Source: a virus
Lineage: Duplodnaviria > Heunggongvirae > Uroviricota > Caudoviricetes
IMG/VR virus record: IMGVR_UViG_2563366799_000006
DNA: 49,446 nucleotides
Strand: one strand, 5' to 3'
The translations under genes and the position numbers were made by a program. Below, piece after piece: positions 1 through 4,977 of this stretch (its first letter is position 1; every line of letters starts with the position of its first letter). Under the pieces are notes generated by a model, which saw only the letters and a program-made list of their open reading frames with translations, made no database searches and was not told the DNA's origin.

Positions 1-204
1 TCAGTTAATTGGCTGTTTCACACCTTCCCACTCTTTGACTGACTCCGACTTCCAGCGGTTAGGATTACCGGGAAAGTCCGGGGCGGGGAACGGCTTCGCA
101 AAACCCCGCGGCATCGTGTCTGTGCTTTGCCATGACCAAAGGGTTTTACGTGAGATTTTGTATCGACTGGTCAGGTCTGACGTCAGCAAAATATCATCCA
201 TCAT
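1..204 (-). CDS. Excisionase/AlpA-like small DNA-binding protein (putative Xis)
   Basis: 67-aa ORF whose stop is the first codon of the window; GGAG RBS upstream of tandem ATG ATG; small basic protein at the distal end of the leftward early operon where xis normally sits. Confidence 0.45.
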   Translation of the reverse strand: MMDDILLTSDLTSRYKISRKTLWSWQSTDTMPRGFAKPFPAPDFPGNPNRWKSESVKEWEGVKQPIN

Positions 205-246
205 TTTTCTCCAATGGCCCGAACTGGGCCATTTCCAAAAGTAATA

Positions 247-489
247 TCAAGAAACCTGACCAGGCAACGCGCGCAACCGGCGCATACCTGTCATCGCCGT
301 GGCCACGTAGCTAGCCTTACGGTTCACTACCTCCACCCAGACCTTCATACCTTCAACTCTCACCGTGTACGTCTCTTTCATCTTGCTGCGGCCATAGTCG
401 CCGTAACGTTCTGCATGAGTGGCCAGTGCTATGTCGCATGCCTTACGCGCTAACGGGGATTGCTGGTTGCCTCGGTTAATCAGTCGCAT
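247..489 (-). CDS. Hypothetical early protein (ORF track gives longer form 247..558)
   Basis: ORF 247..558; internal ATG at 489 has an AGAAGG RBS and avoids a long overlap with the upstream gene, so the shorter form is preferred. Confidence 0.35.
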   Translation of the reverse strand: MRLINRGNQQSPLARKACDIALATHAERYGDYGRSKMKETYTVRVEGMKVWVEVVNRKASYVATAMTGMRRLRALPGQVS

Positions 490-679
490 GGTCACCGCCT
501 TCTGGATTGGATGGTTGACGGAAAACCGCTCGGGACGGCGACCAATCGCAATATGCATCGGTTTCGGTATGCCCGAAAATTGCCTTACAGCGACGGATAT
601 GGGCGCAGTCGCCGCAGGTCTTACCCTTCGGGAGTTGCATTTTATCGGGGTCTGCCGGGTTATAATTTAGCTCAGTCAT
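476..679 (-). CDS. Hypothetical Cys-rich small protein (CGDC...C...C)
   Basis: 67-aa ORF with GGAGG RBS 6 nt upstream; start overlaps the stop of the upstream gene (coupling); four Cys in a zinc-binding-like spacing. Confidence 0.45.
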   Translation of the reverse strand: MTELNYNPADPDKMQLPKGKTCGDCAHIRRCKAIFGHTETDAYCDWSPSRAVFRQPSNPEGGDHATD

Positions 680-1028
680 TCCAGGCCTCCAGCTCGTTCT
701 GAATCTCTTCGTCTATTTCGTCGTTGCTGGCCTCTTCATTGAGGTAGCTCAGTGCTTCTTTCCTGTACTGCTCACGACGGCTGCTGTCGTACCAAACTGA
801 GAATTCTGGAGACCAGCCACGGTCATCGCCGTTTTCAGCAAAAAAATCATGCATTGCGTTGTTATAGGCCAGGCTCTCTACCATGCATTCAGCAGTTGTC
901 AGGGCGCATTCCCGGATGTAACCGCGAAGGTGGTGTTTGCGCCACCAAGGACTTACTTTCGAATCGCAACGTCCTTTGAACTCAATTTCCCAGCGGCGGA
1001 TGCAGCGTGCGTTTAAAGATTTACTCAT
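672..1028 (-). CDS. Hypothetical early protein with acidic C-terminus
   Basis: 118-aa ORF directly downstream of recT in the same orientation. Confidence 0.5.
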   Translation of the reverse strand: MSKSLNARCIRRWEIEFKGRCDSKVSPWWRKHHLRGYIRECALTTAECMVESLAYNNAMHDFFAENGDDRGWSPEFSVWYDSSRREQYRKEALSYLNEEASNDEIDEEIQNELEAWND

Positions 1029-1062
1029 CTCGTTACCGGGAGGGTTCGCCCTCCCGCCTCCC

Positions 1063-2154
1063 TTAGGCCACGTATTCCGGTTTCATATCCGCCAAGGTGA
1101 TGCTGAACTGATCGTGCAGTTCGTCGCCCAGATGACGTTTCGCCGTTGCAAGAACTCGCTCAACTTCCCCAAACCGTTCAGCTGCATCCGGTTCATCCGG
1201 AGACGGCAGGGAGTTGATCGCGGCTTCAACCTTGTTACGTGAATCAACCAGGTAGTAGCGCTTCACTGCCTTATTCTTCAGCTCGGTGAACAGGGCAGAT
1301 CCGAGCGTGGCCTTCGCGCTTTCGATATCAGCACGCAGTGCTTTGGCGCTATCAACATCCTGTGCTGCCTCGATGCGCTCGCGGAAATCATCGGCAAGAG
1401 CGTCGATATTTACCGACGATTCGTGTGCGCTTTGCGTAGTTGTGACGGTGTCACCTGCGATTTCAGCAACGCTCATTCGTTGGGCTGAGCCAGGGTTAAT
1501 AACTTTTTCTTCTCGTTCTTCGACTTCATCGGCACTGTAAACACCAAGAATCACATCAGGGCAGTACAAGCGAGCCCAGCGCTTTACCGCGAGATAAGCG
1601 AGCTGCTGACGCGGATCACTTGCCCATAGTGTCGAATTACGAACCTGAGCCTGAGAAAGCATGAGTACCAGTTCGCGTGGCTCATCCTCGCCTTTCATCG
1701 TTGCCCACACACGAATTCCTACACCGGCCTCATCCTTTAAATCCCAACCGGGCGCGATGTACTTATTGCCTTTAGAACTGGTTCTCTCTACAAATCGACC
1801 AATGATGTTTTCCCATGGGCCAAACCAATCGTAATGAAGGCGATCTTTTGTAGGCGACATGTTGGTAACAACCGCATTAACCAGTTGAGCTTCGTAACCC
1901 AACACTCCGCTATTACCGACGATGTGGGTCTTCTGAGCTACGGCAAAGGGGTCCATACCCCATCGTGCGGCCTGCATGACCACAGCCATGCAGGCATCTG
2001 GTTTTCCGCGGAAGTGGTCAGGTACAAAAGCGCCACTATTTGCCATCACTGTCGACAAGGTGCGTAGGCGGTCGAAAAGTTCCCCATTAGTCAAAATTGA
2101 GATGTTATCGATCATTTGCGTCTTGTTTTCGTTGGTAGTAATTGCAGTAGACAT
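1063..2154 (-). CDS. recT: RecT-family single-strand annealing recombinase
   Basis: 363-aa ORF starting 12 bp after the stop of the large nuclease gene upstream (recE-recT arrangement as in Rac); sequence recalls RecT/Red-beta annealing proteins; family assignment from memory. Confidence 0.65.
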   Translation of the reverse strand: MSTAITTNENKTQMIDNISILTNGELFDRLRTLSTVMANSGAFVPDHFRGKPDACMAVVMQAARWGMDPFAVAQKTHIVGNSGVLGYEAQLVNAVVTNMSPTKDRLHYDWFGPWENIIGRFVERTSSKGNKYIAPGWDLKDEAGVGIRVWATMKGEDEPRELVLMLSQAQVRNSTLWASDPRQQLAYLAVKRWARLYCPDVILGVYSADEVEEREEKVINPGSAQRMSVAEIAGDTVTTTQSAHESSVNIDALADDFRERIEAAQDVDSAKALRADIESAKATLGSALFTELKNKAVKRYYLVDSRNKVEAAINSLPSPDEPDAAERFGEVERVLATAKRHLGDELHDQFSITLADMKPEYVA

Positions 2155-2166
2155 GTTCTTTTCCCC

Positions 2167-4977
2167 TTATGCCTGAGTACGCAGCGCTTCAAGGCGGCGC
2201 AGGTCGAAGTCGTTCAGTTCGTCGGTGTAATCAGCGGTGATCGGCGCTGGCCATTCGCCAGTGTCAAAGCCGGTAGCGATAGCGCGCATCGCCTTGCGGT
2301 ACTCGAGCATGCCCAGCTCTAGCAGTTCAGCGGATGCCTCGATGATGGCGATCCAGTGGTAGTTCTCGTCTTTGTTGACGAAAATCCAGAAGAACTGGTC
2401 AAGTGCCGCGGTCTCGCAATACATGGCGGCGCTCAGGTGATAGTCACGGTCGATGATTTCCCGGTGCAGTTTGGCGCGCAGACCTTCCTGCTTAATGTTC
2501 CACATGCTGATGGTTTTAAGGTCGGCACCGATGCGTACCCCGTCCAAGTCGATCTCAAGGTCAGGACGCACGCGGACTTCAAGTCCGGTTTCGTCGTCAA
2601 AGCCAAAATAGCTCACCTCAACAGCGCGGCTCGGATGCTGAAGCAGCATCCCGGCGGTTGGGTGCTTTAGCAGGGCTTTCTGAATGGCCAGTGCGGTGCT
2701 CAGCTGCTGGCGGGTGACCAGCACTTTCCCATGCGGATTCTCGCGCCACGCATCCAACAACTCGTCGGCGAATACGGCTTCCGGATTAACAGACTTCACG
2801 GCCTGAATCAGGTCTGATTTGGTACCGGACACTTTCAGTGGTTGGGGCTTCTGCGCCTCCTGTGCAACCAAGTCAGGATTGATGATTGCCAGCTGCTCGA
2901 GCAGCGCGTCACGGCTACCGCTGGTTTTCACCTGCGGCGGCAGGGTGGCGTTGTACTCTTTGATGCAGGCTTTCATCGCCGCTGCGGTCTGCTTCTGGTC
3001 CGCTTCGATCCGCTGGTACTCTTCTGGCAGCGACATGTAGCTCTGGCCAGTTTCCTCGACTGAACCACCCAGTGGCACCTGAGCAGGCAGTGTGGCGTTG
3101 TATTCTTCCAACAACGCTTTGATGTCGTCGGCGCTCAATTGCGCTGGCAGGCTGGCGTTGTACTCATCGATAAACGCGCGGATTGTTGCCGTTGTGGTGA
3201 ACGCGCCTTCCGGGATCATCGGTTCAACGCTGAACTCTTCATCAAGCTGCTCTGGCTGCAACGCAAGGCCGTGCACCAGGTTACCCATGTCCAGTACCGG
3301 AGAACGCTCTTTGGTGATCGTTTTGGCAACGTGGCGCGCATTGAAGTACATCAGCGATACACGCGCATCTTTCACCTGGGTTGAGCTGATACCGTTCGCT
3401 GCGTGATAAACCTCGTTCGGCAACCCTTCATAGCGGCCTGGCTCAAAGTAAGCAGGGTAAACAACAGCCGGTTCGTCAGAATGAGATTCTGGCTCGGTTT
3501 GTGCCGCAACTGGTTCAGTTTGGTTTACAGAATCGCTGTTTTGGCTAACAGAATCCGCATTCTGGTTTACATCGGCCTGCTGGCCGGTATGTGACTCTTC
3601 ACCAGTTTCCAGACTGCTTTCTCCTGACTGCACTTCATCACCAGCCTGTTCTTCATCACTGACAGTTTCTTCCATCTGCACATTGCTGGTGGTTTCCTCA
3701 TTAAGTGGTGAACGGTCATCTGTTTGTGTTTGTTGATCACCCATCAGGCCATCAATGGAGAATACGCCGTTGCCCATGTTGGCGATTTGTGGCTGTTTAG
3801 CAGCTGTTTTCTGCTCTGCAGCGACCTGCTCATTAAACTCATTTTCCCAACTGACGTCCGGCGCATGACCAGCATCAGCCAGCGTTTCTTCTGAGGGGTT
3901 TGAGTGGTCATTTTCGGTTAGATTGGCATTGATATATGCCCGCAACCGCCCAGGAAAGTTAACCAATTCGGATGATGTGCCGCGGATGAGTGCAAAGATG
4001 GCGGCGCGTGAATAGTCCAGGATGCCAGCGGTTTTGCGCAGCGCCTCAGACCATTCGCTGAACGGACTTTCTTTCTTGCTGACAATCTCTTTAGCGCGGC
4101 GGTAGACCCCACCAGGTATGTCGTAGATATTGAAATCCATTGGCAAGGTGGCCAGCGCAATTTCAACATCCAGAGTGTCCAGTGTGTGGACGTAGTCGGT
4201 ATTGCGATCGGTCTTATTTCCACCGCCAGCATTGGTTTTGACGTCAGTGCGTTGAATCTGCACAACACGGTTGCCTTTCTGCCATTCCTTGACCAGCAGG
4301 CCACGGTCGATGTAATCAGTGTTGAACCACACCGTCAGGAACTGGATAACTGTTGCCAGTTCCGGTTTTTTACCGTCGACAGGGAAGGCTTTCTTAACGG
4401 CATTCACGACTTTATGGATATCGTGCTCAATGGCTTTTTTGAATGCTTCCACATTCTCAGCAGCCAGCAGCAGGTTTTGGGCGTACGCGTTATCAGTGTC
4501 CATCTCAAGGCGGACAATCTCGTTTTTCTGACCAGCGTCGACGTGATAGAGATATTCACCATCACCGATGAACTGAGCCAGTACGCGCTGACGGAATGGC
4601 AGGGTGGCAACGACGATCAGGTTCGGCTGCTCTGACTGCTGAGATTCTTCTGCGGTGCTGTCTTCAGTATCCGCGTCGTCGACAGACTCATCTTCAGCCT
4701 GTTGTTTAACATTCCAGGTGCGCTGGTCTTCAGCCAGTTCGTAACGATCGCACCATGTGAAATCAACTTCGCCTTCTTCTGGCAGGTCGTTGTACACCGG
4801 GAAATCAGTGCGAATAGGTTTGGCGTAGTCCTTACCACGGCCGGTTTCGATGCCTGCATCTTCCAGTGCAACATCCAGCTGCAGGTTGGCGCGAGCCTCG
4901 GTTTTCGCAGTGAACCAGACCACTGCATCTTGTTTTCCGGATTTCTGAGTGGCTTTAACCACATTAAAGAATTCCAT
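2167..4977 (-). CDS. recE: RecE-like exonuclease VIII (C-terminal PD-(D/E)xK nuclease domain, acidic linker, internal repeats)
   Basis: 936-aa ORF; C-terminal region has RPD...GADLK, a PD-(D/E)xK-like motif; long D/E/S/Q-rich low-complexity linker; three copies of an EYNA(S/T)LP(A/P)QV peptide motif; immediately upstream of recT. Confidence 0.7.
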   Translation of the reverse strand: MEFFNVVKATQKSGKQDAVVWFTAKTEARANLQLDVALEDAGIETGRGKDYAKPIRTDFPVYNDLPEEGEVDFTWCDRYELAEDQRTWNVKQQAEDESVDDADTEDSTAEESQQSEQPNLIVVATLPFRQRVLAQFIGDGEYLYHVDAGQKNEIVRLEMDTDNAYAQNLLLAAENVEAFKKAIEHDIHKVVNAVKKAFPVDGKKPELATVIQFLTVWFNTDYIDRGLLVKEWQKGNRVVQIQRTDVKTNAGGGNKTDRNTDYVHTLDTLDVEIALATLPMDFNIYDIPGGVYRRAKEIVSKKESPFSEWSEALRKTAGILDYSRAAIFALIRGTSSELVNFPGRLRAYINANLTENDHSNPSEETLADAGHAPDVSWENEFNEQVAAEQKTAAKQPQIANMGNGVFSIDGLMGDQQTQTDDRSPLNEETTSNVQMEETVSDEEQAGDEVQSGESSLETGEESHTGQQADVNQNADSVSQNSDSVNQTEPVAAQTEPESHSDEPAVVYPAYFEPGRYEGLPNEVYHAANGISSTQVKDARVSLMYFNARHVAKTITKERSPVLDMGNLVHGLALQPEQLDEEFSVEPMIPEGAFTTTATIRAFIDEYNASLPAQLSADDIKALLEEYNATLPAQVPLGGSVEETGQSYMSLPEEYQRIEADQKQTAAAMKACIKEYNATLPPQVKTSGSRDALLEQLAIINPDLVAQEAQKPQPLKVSGTKSDLIQAVKSVNPEAVFADELLDAWRENPHGKVLVTRQQLSTALAIQKALLKHPTAGMLLQHPSRAVEVSYFGFDDETGLEVRVRPDLEIDLDGVRIGADLKTISMWNIKQEGLRAKLHREIIDRDYHLSAAMYCETAALDQFFWIFVNKDENYHWIAIIEASAELLELGMLEYRKAMRAIATGFDTGEWPAPITADYTDELNDFDLRRLEALRTQA
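2931..3178. repeat. Three imperfect direct repeats (~22-bp core GGCAGGNTGGCGTTGTAYTC) inside recE
   Basis: Copies at about 2931-2969, 3080-3118 and 3140-3178 on the + strand; they encode the repeated EYNA(S/T)LP(A/P)QV motif. Confidence 0.6.

What the first reader, a model, noticed from the sequence alone, without database searches (positions are those of the whole stretch)
2931..3178. Triplicated peptide motif and DNA direct repeats inside the RecE-like nuclease gene
Three ~22-bp imperfect direct repeats encode three copies of a ...EYNA(S/T)LP(A/P)QV motif located between the acidic linker and the nuclease domain. Repeats inside a recombination gene may be a protein-interaction module or a substrate for repeat expansion and contraction.
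Basis: seen in the sequence. Interest (0 to 1): 0.35.

Follow-up and report, generated by a model that had tools for sequence, protein, structure and literature searches.

The report
Expanded SAP-like repeats inside RecE nuclease
The three repeated peptides are real, and they are duplicated halves of a small SAP-type (helix-loop-helix) DNA-binding motif that has grown, with varying copy number, inside the DNA-capturing rim loop of a prophage RecE recombination exonuclease.

Summary
Three direct repeats (cores at 2939-2958, 3086-3105 and 3146-3165; 0 expected by chance) encode TIRAFIDEYNASLPAQL, DIKALLEEYNATLPAQV and AMKACIKEYNATLPPQV in a 936-aa RecE-family gene on the minus strand (2167-4977), next to recT.

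The repeats lie inside the PD-(D/E)XK nuclease domain, not between the linker and the domain. They sit in a 174-aa insert (aa 582-755) that replaces the 34-residue disordered rim loop of Rac RecE (residues 665-698), which is thought to capture dsDNA.

The insert has the order A1-A2-spacer-A3-B1-B2. Unit A corresponds to helix 1 of a SAP motif and unit B to helix 2. Small homologues carry a Pfam-significant SAP domain at the same site, and profile-profile comparison links the window's units to it (probability 87-98%; controls below 0.5%). AlphaFold models the insert as confident helices (pLDDT 96.6).

Copy number varies among homologues, from 1A/1B to 3A/2B, 4A/2B and 4A/3B. However, the DNA copies share only 60-68% identity, so this is occasional unit duplication, not a slippage-prone locus.

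The most likely role is a dsDNA-binding crown at the channel mouth. This is inferred, not shown. I rate it a new variant of a known kind, of moderate interest.

The parts
2167..4977 (-). RecE-family exodeoxyribonuclease gene, 936 aa
   Evidence: ORF. Pfam Exonuc_VIII (121.6 bits) and DUF3799 PDDEXK (44.3 bits). PHROG 607. Annotated 'RecE family exodeoxyribonuclease' in E. coli homologues.
4471..4968 (-). N-terminal Exonuc_VIII (PF06630) domain, aa 4-169
3235..3450 (-). N-terminal part of the PD-(D/E)XK nuclease domain (aa 510-581). It holds VYHAANGISS and LDMGNLVH, the His equivalent to Rac RecE His-652.
   Evidence: phmmer alignment to 3H4R chain 5-63. Invariant or near-invariant Y20, H21, G25, S27, G61 and H65 in the 82-sequence alignment.
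2713..3234 (-). 174-aa helical insert (aa 582-755) replacing the Rac RecE rim loop 665-698. Order: A1-A2-spacer-A3-B1-B2-trailing helix.
   Evidence: Split alignment to 3H4R. Insert-length classes among homologues. AF2 helices with pLDDT >90. Loop description in PMC11611040 section 2.3.
3133..3192 (-). Unit A1 (aa 596-615, TATIRAFIDEYNASLPAQLS); corresponds to SAP helix 1 and is orthologous to the helix 1 of single-SAP relatives
3073..3132 (-). Unit A2 (aa 616-635, ADDIKALLEEYNATLPAQVP), in tandem with A1
2986..3072 (-). 29-aa acidic spacer (aa 636-664) with one short helix
2926..2985 (-). Unit A3 (aa 665-684, AAAMKACIKEYNATLPPQVK)
   Evidence: hhalign of A3+B1 against SAP inserts
2836..2928 (-). 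Unit B1 (aa 684-714, KTSGSRDALLEQLAIINPDLVAQEAQKPQPL); corresponds to SAP helix 2, with conserved G687 and R689
2743..2835 (-). Unit B2 (aa 715-745, KVSGTKSDLIQAVKSVNPEAVFADELLDAWR); SAP helix 2 with conserved G718 and K720, and a weak direct Pfam SAP hit
2170..2712 (-). C-terminal part of the nuclease domain (aa 756-936) with the catalytic E787, D806, D819, K821 and Y846
2939..2958 (+). DNA repeat core, copy 3 in gene order (GGCAGGGTGGCGTTGTACTC)
3086..3105 (+). DNA repeat core, copy 2
3146..3165 (+). DNA repeat core, copy 1
1063..2154 (-). recT (RecT-family annealase), the partner gene immediately downstream
   Evidence: Pfam RecT, 140.9 bits

Best explanation
The triplicated EYNA(S/T)LP peptide is the C-terminal cap of helix 1 of a SAP-type helix-extended-loop-helix (HeH) motif. 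One SAP motif sits in the rim loop of the RecE nuclease domain in some relatives. In this lineage its two halves were duplicated in register: three helix-1 units (A1, A2, A3) and two helix-2 units (B1, B2). The result is a 174-aa, all-helical, well-folded sub-domain containing about three overlapping SAP-like motifs: A1-A2, A3-B1 and B1tail-B2. The sub-domain replaces the 34-residue disordered loop of Rac RecE (residues 665-698), which projects from the rim of the tetramer's central channel. In a tetramer, four copies would therefore form a crown at the mouth where dsDNA ends enter. I infer that the crown binds the duplex ahead of the active site through a conserved basic patch (K669, K673, K684, R689, K720, K728) on an otherwise acidic module, helping end capture and/or processivity. 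Shown here: the repeats, their position in the fold, their SAP ancestry, the confident helical structure, purifying selection, and copy-number variation among homologues. Inferred: DNA binding, the crown geometry, and any effect on activity.
For: Position. The 3H4R nuclease domain aligns in two pieces, query 522-629 to chain 5-111 and query 750-914 to chain 92-252. With His-652 at chain position 51, RecE 665-698 is chain 64-97 ([34 protein letters not shown]), which is exactly the segment replaced. [quoted passage not shown]

SAP ancestry. The small homologues P0242, P0245 and P0248 carry a Pfam SAP domain above the gathering score (29.6-34.4 bits against 23.9) at the same site, and P0245 is precomputed as PF02037+PF12684. 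A graded series links SAP to the window: P0248, then P0193, then P0147 (one A plus one B), then the window. hhalign of the window-class segments against those SAP inserts gives A3+B1 93.5% (E 2e-7) and 92.5%, A1+A2 87% and B1tail+B2 98%. Three nuclease-core control segments give 0.1-0.4%. There is also a weak direct Pfam SAP hit on B2 (E 0.02) and a FANC_SAP hit.

Structure. AF2 with an 82-sequence alignment gives pLDDT 96.6 and pTM 0.82. Helices fall at model positions 92-105, 112-125, 136-144, 161-172, 185-195, 197-204, 216-226 and 233-242, between stem strands 78-80 and 248-250.

Conservation over 31 representatives (24-88% identity). N607, N627 and N676 are 100% conserved, G718 is 97% conserved, and G687, R689, K720, K684 and K669 are 84-90% conserved. 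Against E. coli homologues, synonymous codon differences exceed non-synonymous ones in the insert (53-61 against 23-29 of 174 codons).

Copy-number classes are documented.
Against: The window's own sequence does not reach Pfam's SAP threshold (14.9 bits against 23.9), and isolated A3+B1 segments do not hit SAP individually. The SAP link therefore rests on profile-profile comparison and on homologues. The SAP template alignment includes orthologous flanks, which inflate the A1A2 and B1B2 scores; A3B1 is the cleanest test. The insert is net acidic in every representative (-11 in the window, -2 to -13 overall), which is unusual for a DNA-binding module. I could not see model coordinates or predicted aligned error, so the packing of the units and their orientation to the channel are not verified. 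DNA binding by the Rac RecE loop is itself described only as 'presumably' in the literature. No experiment bears on this protein.
Confidence: 0.6

Rival explanations
1. The repeat module is a protein-docking platform. The repeated amphipathic A helices would bind the partner annealase RecT, host SSB or another factor, so that a RecE tetramer loads several RecT molecules onto the emerging 3' strand.
For: RecE and RecT interact specifically through the RecE C-terminal region (Muyrers 2000, as cited in PMC11611040). recT lies immediately downstream. The insert is net acidic (-11), and A1, A2 and the spacer lack the SAP Gly-Lys signature, which suits protein contacts better than DNA contacts. The RecE-RecT interface is structurally unknown.
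Against: RecE relatives with only a short basic loop (Rac RecE) or a single SAP also pair with RecT, so the repeats cannot be the general RecT site. E. coli homologues with the same 3A/2B insert sit next to recT genes of three different lengths (1041, 1092 and 1113 nt). The site is homologous to a loop assigned to DNA capture and to true SAP domains.
Confidence: 0.15
2. The module is a structural decoration only. A once-functional SAP has degenerated into a helical scaffold that stabilises the tetramer or shields the channel, without binding DNA or partners specifically.
For: The module is acidic overall. SAP similarity is sub-threshold in Pfam. Non-synonymous divergence is higher than in the catalytic core (13-17% against 5-7% of codons).
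Against: The SAP-signature Gly and the following basic residue are conserved in both B units, and a set of basic positions is conserved across 24-88% identity. There is clear purifying selection. Expansions recur independently in distant lineages such as P0161 and P0166, which suggests a selected function.
Confidence: 0.15
3. The repeats act at the DNA level, as a slippage-prone contingency tract or as binding sites (iterons or regulatory repeats) embedded in the gene.
For: There are three direct repeats against 0 expected by chance, and unit number differs among homologues.
Against: The copies share only 60-68% nucleotide identity, with exact matches of 10-13 nt at most. Tandem Repeats Finder does not report them as an array. 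Differences from homologues are mostly synonymous in the minus-strand frame. 103 of 119 close clusters have the identical arrangement. The extra units in other alleles are themselves only about 73% identical in protein to their neighbours, so they are old events.
Confidence: 0.03

Closest known systems
Rac prophage RecE (exonuclease VIII) nuclease domain, PDB 3H4R
   Same: It has the same PD-(D/E)XK fold (Foldseek E 4e-9, probability 1.0), the same catalytic residues, the same N-terminal Exonuc_VIII domain and the same recT neighbour. The insert occupies the position of RecE loop 665-698 at the channel rim.
   Different: Rac RecE has a 34-residue disordered basic loop there, while this protein has a 174-residue folded helical module built of repeated SAP halves. 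It scores far below the NCBIfam equivalog cut-off for exonuclease VIII (531 against 1269 bits).
SAP domain (Pfam PF02037; HeH motif) as found inserted in small DUF3799 nucleases (P0242, P0245, P0248)
   Same: It has the same insertion site, the same helix-extended-loop-helix pattern and the conserved Gly plus basic residue at the start of helix 2. The profile-profile match is 87-98%.
   Different: The window has three helix-1 and two helix-2 units instead of one of each. The inter-helix loop is 6 residues longer (ATLPPQ). Asn replaces Gly as the helix-1 C-cap. Pfam's threshold is not reached.
FAN1 (eukaryotic SAP plus PD-(D/E)XK VRR-nuc nuclease) and the Ku70 C-terminal SAP
   Same: From general knowledge, these combine a SAP DNA-binding motif with a DNA-end or structure-specific repair protein, and in FAN1 with a PD-(D/E)XK nuclease. 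A weak FANC_SAP Pfam hit was seen (E 0.08).
   Different: In those proteins the SAP is a separate single domain outside the catalytic fold. Here it is nested in a loop of the nuclease domain and internally multiplied. There is no evidence of direct homology beyond the SAP motif.
RecE-like nucleases with 'GKPENQxLKPSDK' repeats at the same site (e.g. P0181, P0191)
   Same: They have the same hypervariable insertion point and also a variable number of short repeats (84-221 aa).
   Different: The repeat sequence is unrelated and rich in Lys and Pro, with no SAP signature.

Membership tests
RecE / exonuclease VIII family (PF06630 + PF12684) | N-terminal Exonuc_VIII domain above the Pfam gathering score | tested here: met
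   121.6 bits against cut-off 25, aa 4-169
RecE / exonuclease VIII family (PF06630 + PF12684) | C-terminal PDDEXK (DUF3799) domain above the gathering score | tested here: met
   44.3 bits against cut-off 26, matched in two stretches split by the insert
RecE / exonuclease VIII family (PF06630 + PF12684) | Conserved catalytic residues (His, Glu, Asp, DxK, Tyr) | tested here: met
   E283, D302, D315, K317 and Y342 are invariant and H65 is >=90% conserved in 82 sequences. These correspond to aa 787, 806, 819, 821, 846 and 569.
RecE / exonuclease VIII family (PF06630 + PF12684) | Fold similar to the solved RecE nuclease domain | tested here: met
   The top Foldseek PDB hit for the AF2 model (pLDDT 96.6) is 3H4R, E 4e-9, TM (target) 0.60.
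RecE / exonuclease VIII family (PF06630 + PF12684) | Equivalog of E. coli exonuclease VIII (NCBIfam NF007259) | tested here: not met
   531.5 bits against cut-off 1269; only the N-terminal 390 aa align. It is a family member but not an equivalog of Rac RecE.
RecE / exonuclease VIII family (PF06630 + PF12684) | Adjacent RecT-family annealase gene | tested here: met
   recT at 1063-2154, Pfam 140.9 bits; the same gene order in other contigs
RecE / exonuclease VIII family (PF06630 + PF12684) | Processive 5'->3' dsDNA exonuclease activity and a toroidal tetramer | not testable with these tools
   This needs biochemistry, or structure determination of the oligomer.
SAP domain (PF02037, HeH clan) | Score above the Pfam gathering threshold | tested here: not met
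   Best score 14.9 bits (E 0.02) against 23.9, covering only helix 2 of B2. One of 18 A3+B1 segments hits SAP, at E 0.14.
SAP domain (PF02037, HeH clan) | Homology to bona fide SAP domains by profile-profile comparison | tested here: met
   hhalign against SAP inserts of homologues that pass Pfam: 93.5%; 87%, 92.5% and 98% for the three motifs against 0.1-0.4% for controls
SAP domain (PF02037, HeH clan) | Two helices joined by an extended loop, with a conserved Gly and basic residue at the start of helix 2 | tested here: met
   AF2 helices at 161-172 / 185-195 and 197-204 / 216-226. G687, R689, G718 and K720 are conserved at 84-97%.
SAP domain (PF02037, HeH clan) | Three-dimensional superposition on a solved SAP domain | not tested
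SAP domain (PF02037, HeH clan) | Binds double-stranded DNA | not testable with these tools
   This needs EMSA or a similar assay.
Slippage-prone (contingency) tandem repeat | Near-identical head-to-tail DNA units | tested here: not met
   60-68% nucleotide identity, longest exact match 13 nt, and only two of the three copies adjacent. TRF does not report them.
Slippage-prone (contingency) tandem repeat | Copy number differs among very close relatives | tested here: inconclusive
   103 of 119 close clusters are identical in length and 16 carry extra units. However, the extra units are diverged (about 73% aa identity). No within-strain data are available.

The most novel reading that the evidence does not exclude
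The rim loop of RecE-family exonucleases may be an evolvable cassette site where phages swap and multiply small DNA-binding repeats: a basic loop, one SAP, 3-4 half-SAP units, or the unrelated GKPEN repeats. Unit number would tune end capture, processivity or substrate choice. Alternatively, the acidic A units would serve as multivalent docking sites that set the stoichiometry of RecT loading. If so, repeat number would be a natural dial for recombination efficiency, and it could be exploited for recombineering.
Probability: 0.12. Interest if true: 0.6.

Novelty: new variant of a known kind. Interest (0 to 1): 0.4.

Why it matters
RecE/RecT is a workhorse of recombineering, yet how RecE captures DNA ends and hands the strand to RecT is unresolved. 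The relevant loop is disordered in the only crystal structure. This widespread prophage allele is found in lambdoid phages such as HK225, mEp237, SPN3UB and Gifsy-1/2, and the exact protein occurs in hundreds of assemblies. In it, a confidently folded module of recognisable ancestry replaces that floppy loop. That gives a concrete, testable handle on the DNA-entry side of the enzyme: mutate R689/K720, or swap 1-, 3- and 4-unit versions. It is also an unusual example of a tiny domain growing by duplicating its half-units. The practical consequence is modest unless the repeats prove to change activity.

Tried and rejected
- Single-sequence AlphaFold gave a useless model (pLDDT 37). It was replaced by the run using an alignment.
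- Foldseek of the whole model against the PDB and against viral predicted structures returned only RecE, Cas4 and MGME1-type nuclease cores. Nothing was informative for the insert.
- Direct Pfam scans of the insert and of 18 isolated A3+B1 segments stayed below the SAP threshold.
- Literature searches for 'exonuclease VIII' plus 'SAP domain' found nothing. The first 'RecE' search was swamped by 'receptor'. The original RecE structure paper (PMC2688778) is not held.
- A search with the SAP-bearing homologue P0245 showed that most of its relatives lack SAP. SAP at this site is therefore sporadic, and the search added little else.
- Plus-strand ORFs antisense to the repeats (2819-3040, 2842-3063, 3092-3406, 3139-3384) were rejected as coding. 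All family hits are on the minus strand, and substitutions are synonymous in that frame.
- DNA-level roles (iterons, slippage tract) were rejected for the reasons given under the rival explanations.
- The first codon-comparison script crashed. In its replacement, two of the five loci were out of register at the C-terminus and were ignored.
Full report
**1. What is in the sequence**

The finding lies in a 936-aa ORF on the minus strand (2167-4977).
- Pfam assigns an N-terminal Exonuc_VIII domain (aa 4-169, 121.6 bits) and a C-terminal PDDEXK/DUF3799 domain (44.3 bits), the latter matched in two separate stretches. The next gene downstream (1063-2154) is recT.
- PHROG 607 and the annotation of E. 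coli homologues ('RecE family exodeoxyribonuclease') agree.
- The gene context in other assemblies is cI-like repressor, KilR, YdaE, RecE, RecT, DUF4060, integrase. This is a Rac/lambdoid early-left operon.

**2. Check of the observation**

- The repeat finder reports one family of three 61-nt direct repeats (2929-2989, 3076-3136, 3136-3196) at 66-70% identity.
- The 20-nt core GGCAGNNTGGCGTTGTAYTC occurs exactly three times, against 0.00 expected in shuffles.
- In the gene's frame the copies encode TATIRAFIDEYNASLPAQLS (A1, aa 596-615), ADDIKALLEEYNATLPAQVP (A2, aa 616-635) and AAAMKACIKEYNATLPPQVK (A3, aa 665-684). A1 and A2 are in tandem. A3 follows a 29-aa acidic spacer.
- I also found a second, unreported pair of 31-aa units directly after A3: KTSGSRDALLEQLAIINPDLVAQEAQKPQPL (B1) and KVSGTKSDLIQAVKSVNPEAVFADELLDAWR (B2).

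**3. Where the repeats sit in the protein**

That is not so.
- The only solved relative, the Rac RecE nuclease domain (3H4R), aligns in two pieces: query 522-629 to chain 5-111, and query 750-914 to chain 92-252.
- The conserved N-terminal motifs of the domain (VYHAANGISS; LDMGNLVH with the active-site His) lie upstream of the repeats. The catalytic E787, D806, D819-x-K821 and Y846 lie downstream.
- Taking His-652 of RecE as chain position 51, chain 64-97 ([34 protein letters not shown]) equals RecE residues 665-698. This is precisely the segment replaced by window aa 582-755.
[quoted passage not shown] - Consistent with this, Foldseek reports only 219 modelled residues for the 265-residue chain.

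**4. What the repeats are**

A search of 1.84 billion cluster representatives found 2,655 relatives. I aligned 81 representatives with the window sequence. The segment between the conserved L(E/Q)PE helix and the GK-x-(I/L/V)-(I/V)-(T/S) strand falls into length classes:
- 45-57 aa: a basic loop plus helix, as in Rac RecE.
- 89-99 aa: a single motif.
- 194-199 aa: the window's class.
- 247-249 aa.
- A separate series of 84-221 aa with unrelated GKPENQxLKPSDK repeats.

In the 89-90-aa members P0242, P0245 and P0248 the motif is a bona fide SAP domain, scoring 34.4, 33.4 and 29.6 bits against the Pfam gathering score of 23.9. P0245 is precomputed as PF02037+PF12684.

A graded series connects these proteins to the window:
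- P0248: ...GALSTTEDIKAVLKECGEKVSGNKPELIERLKAVRPEAVIADE...
- P0193: ...GALIKTEDYKAAIRSHNESTGEKVKLTGTKPELASRIKEFNPDVIFADE...
- P0147: ...NAFTTTDSLKAFIREYNADKPKAEQLKLTGKKEELQDAIRAVSPEAIFADE...
- Window: GAFTTTATIRAFIDEYNAS...[A2-spacer-A3-B1]...KVSGTKSDLIQAVKSVNPEAVFADE

From this series I conclude that unit A is SAP helix 1 and unit B is SAP helix 2. EYNA(S/T)LP is the C-cap of helix 1 plus the start of the extended linker, with Asn in place of the usual SAP Gly. A1 and B2 are the orthologues of the single SAP's two helices.

Profile-profile comparison supports this.
- A3+B1 segments from 18 homologues against five SAP inserts give 93.5% probability, E 2.3e-7, with a 6-residue longer loop.
- In a second run, A1+A2 gave 87%, A3+B1 92.5% and B1tail+B2 98.1%. 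Three nuclease-core control segments gave 0.1-0.4%.
- The window itself has only a sub-threshold Pfam SAP hit on B2 (E 0.02) and a faint FANC_SAP hit. Isolated A3+B1 segments do not hit SAP on their own.

I therefore call the module SAP-derived, not a Pfam SAP member.

**5. Structure**

- AlphaFold2 with the 82-sequence alignment gives pLDDT 96.6 and pTM 0.82, with no low-confidence segment.
- The insert is entirely helical. In model numbering (aa minus 504) the helices are 92-105 (A1), 112-125 (A2), 136-144 (spacer), 161-172 (A3), 185-195 and 197-204 (B1), 216-226 (B2) and 233-242.
- The insert springs from two short strands, 78-80 (FSV) and 248-250 (VLV), which form its stem.
- Each helix-loop-helix has SAP-like dimensions.
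- The whole model's best PDB match is 3H4R (E 4e-9).

**6. Conservation and selection**

- Across 31 representatives of the window's class (24-88% identity), the Asn of all three A units (N607, N627, N676) is invariant.
- The SAP-signature Gly and the following basic residue are 84-97% conserved in both B units (G687/R689, G718/K720). K684 and K669 are 84-87% conserved, and K662, K673 and K728 hold a basic residue in at least 80% of the representatives.
- The insert is net acidic in every member (-2 to -13; -11 in the window).
- Against E. coli homologues of about 86-90% nucleotide identity, codon differences in the insert are mostly synonymous (53-61 synonymous against 23-29 non-synonymous of 174 codons). 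The peptide is therefore under purifying selection. Selection is somewhat weaker than in the catalytic core (46-54 against 9-12 of 181 codons).

**7. Copy-number variation**

- Of the 120 closest clusters (>=75% identity), 119 could be measured. 103 have the window's spacing. 15, mostly from Klebsiella (also P0007 from E. coli), are 51-52 aa longer, with one extra A in the tandem array and one extra B. One (P0021) has a duplicated 49-aa spacer+A block.
- Distant lineages (P0161 and P0166, 37-39% identity) also show 4A/3B, but with a B2-like rather than B1-like extra unit. This suggests independent expansion.
- P0147-type proteins, 69% identical in the core, have only one A and one B.
- Whether the single form is ancestral or a deletion cannot be decided from these data.

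At the DNA level the window's copies share 60-68% identity, with exact matches of 10-13 nt at most. Extra units in other alleles are only about 73% identical in protein to their neighbours. These are occasional, old, in-register duplications, not an active slippage tract.

**8. Mechanism**

Shown here:
- a folded, conserved, SAP-derived repeat module nested in the rim loop of a RecE-family nuclease;
- variable unit number among homologues.

Inferred:
- in the tetramer, four modules ring the channel entrance;
- the conserved basic patch on A3-B1-B2 contacts the duplex, aiding end capture or processivity;
- the acidic A1-A2-spacer part is structural, or available for protein contacts.

The main rival is RecT or partner docking. 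It is favoured by the acidity and by the unknown RecE-RecT interface. It is disfavoured because relatives lacking the repeats also work with RecT, and because the same insert accompanies three recT length variants. A purely structural role and a DNA-level role are less likely.

**9. Comparison with what is known, and novelty**

- The protein is a member of the RecE/exonuclease VIII family. All testable family features are met except the NCBIfam equivalog score.
- The module works like, and descends from, a SAP/HeH motif, but it fails Pfam's threshold.
- SAP plus a PD-(D/E)XK nuclease has a precedent in FAN1 (general knowledge). There the SAP is a separate single domain.
- The held literature contains no paper combining 'exonuclease VIII' with 'SAP domain'. 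The structural review of RecE never mentions SAP (0 occurrences).
- I classify the finding as a new variant of a known kind. It is a tidy and testable structural observation, of moderate interest to people working on phage recombination and recombineering, and it is not a surprise of principle.

Noticed in passing
Homologues P0175, P0181, P0182, P0184, P0185, P0188, P0191, P0206, P0207 (same insertion site as window aa 582-755): A different, Lys/Pro-rich repeat family (GKPENQ(S/N)LKPSDKxIxxVExW and GKPEPY(K/S)GKPTDKQIxxY) occupies the same rim-loop site, with insert lengths of 84, 127, 165, 174-176 and 221 aa. The site appears to be a general hotspot for repeat expansion in RecE-like nucleases.
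   Followed up: partly
window 3519-3571 (minus-strand gene, about aa 470-487): A 21-nt tandem repeat (2.5 copies, 75% matches) lies in the acidic low-complexity linker and encodes NADSVSQ/NSDSVNQ. Gene length among E. coli homologues ranges from 2811 to 3390 nt, with the differences in the N-terminal half and linker. Many database entries for this protein are 'partial' and begin in this region.
   Followed up: no
L003 (E. coli HCP8S3_I1, NZ_CM149866.1) 1491-4856; L006 (E. coli EC09) 1-3398: The recE homologue in L003 is truncated at its 5' end next to an IS1A element. In L006 recE is split into two pseudogene pieces and recT is frameshifted. These are examples of decay of this module in cryptic prophages.
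   Followed up: no
window 2167-4977; loci L007-L009: The exact 936-aa protein is indexed in 637 blocks of the public assembly collection, always in the order repressor, KilR, YdaE, RecE, RecT, DUF4060, integrase. No complete E. coli genome has better than 93% DNA identity over the full gene. The host species of the window was not determined.
   Followed up: partly
window 2819-3040, 2842-3063, 3092-3406, 3139-3384 (+ strand): Open reading frames of 73-104 aa run antisense to the repeat region and, because of the DNA repeats, themselves contain repeated peptides (GRVALYS, GRLALYSS). No family support was found, and the substitution pattern fits the minus-strand frame, so they are probably not genes.
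   Followed up: partly
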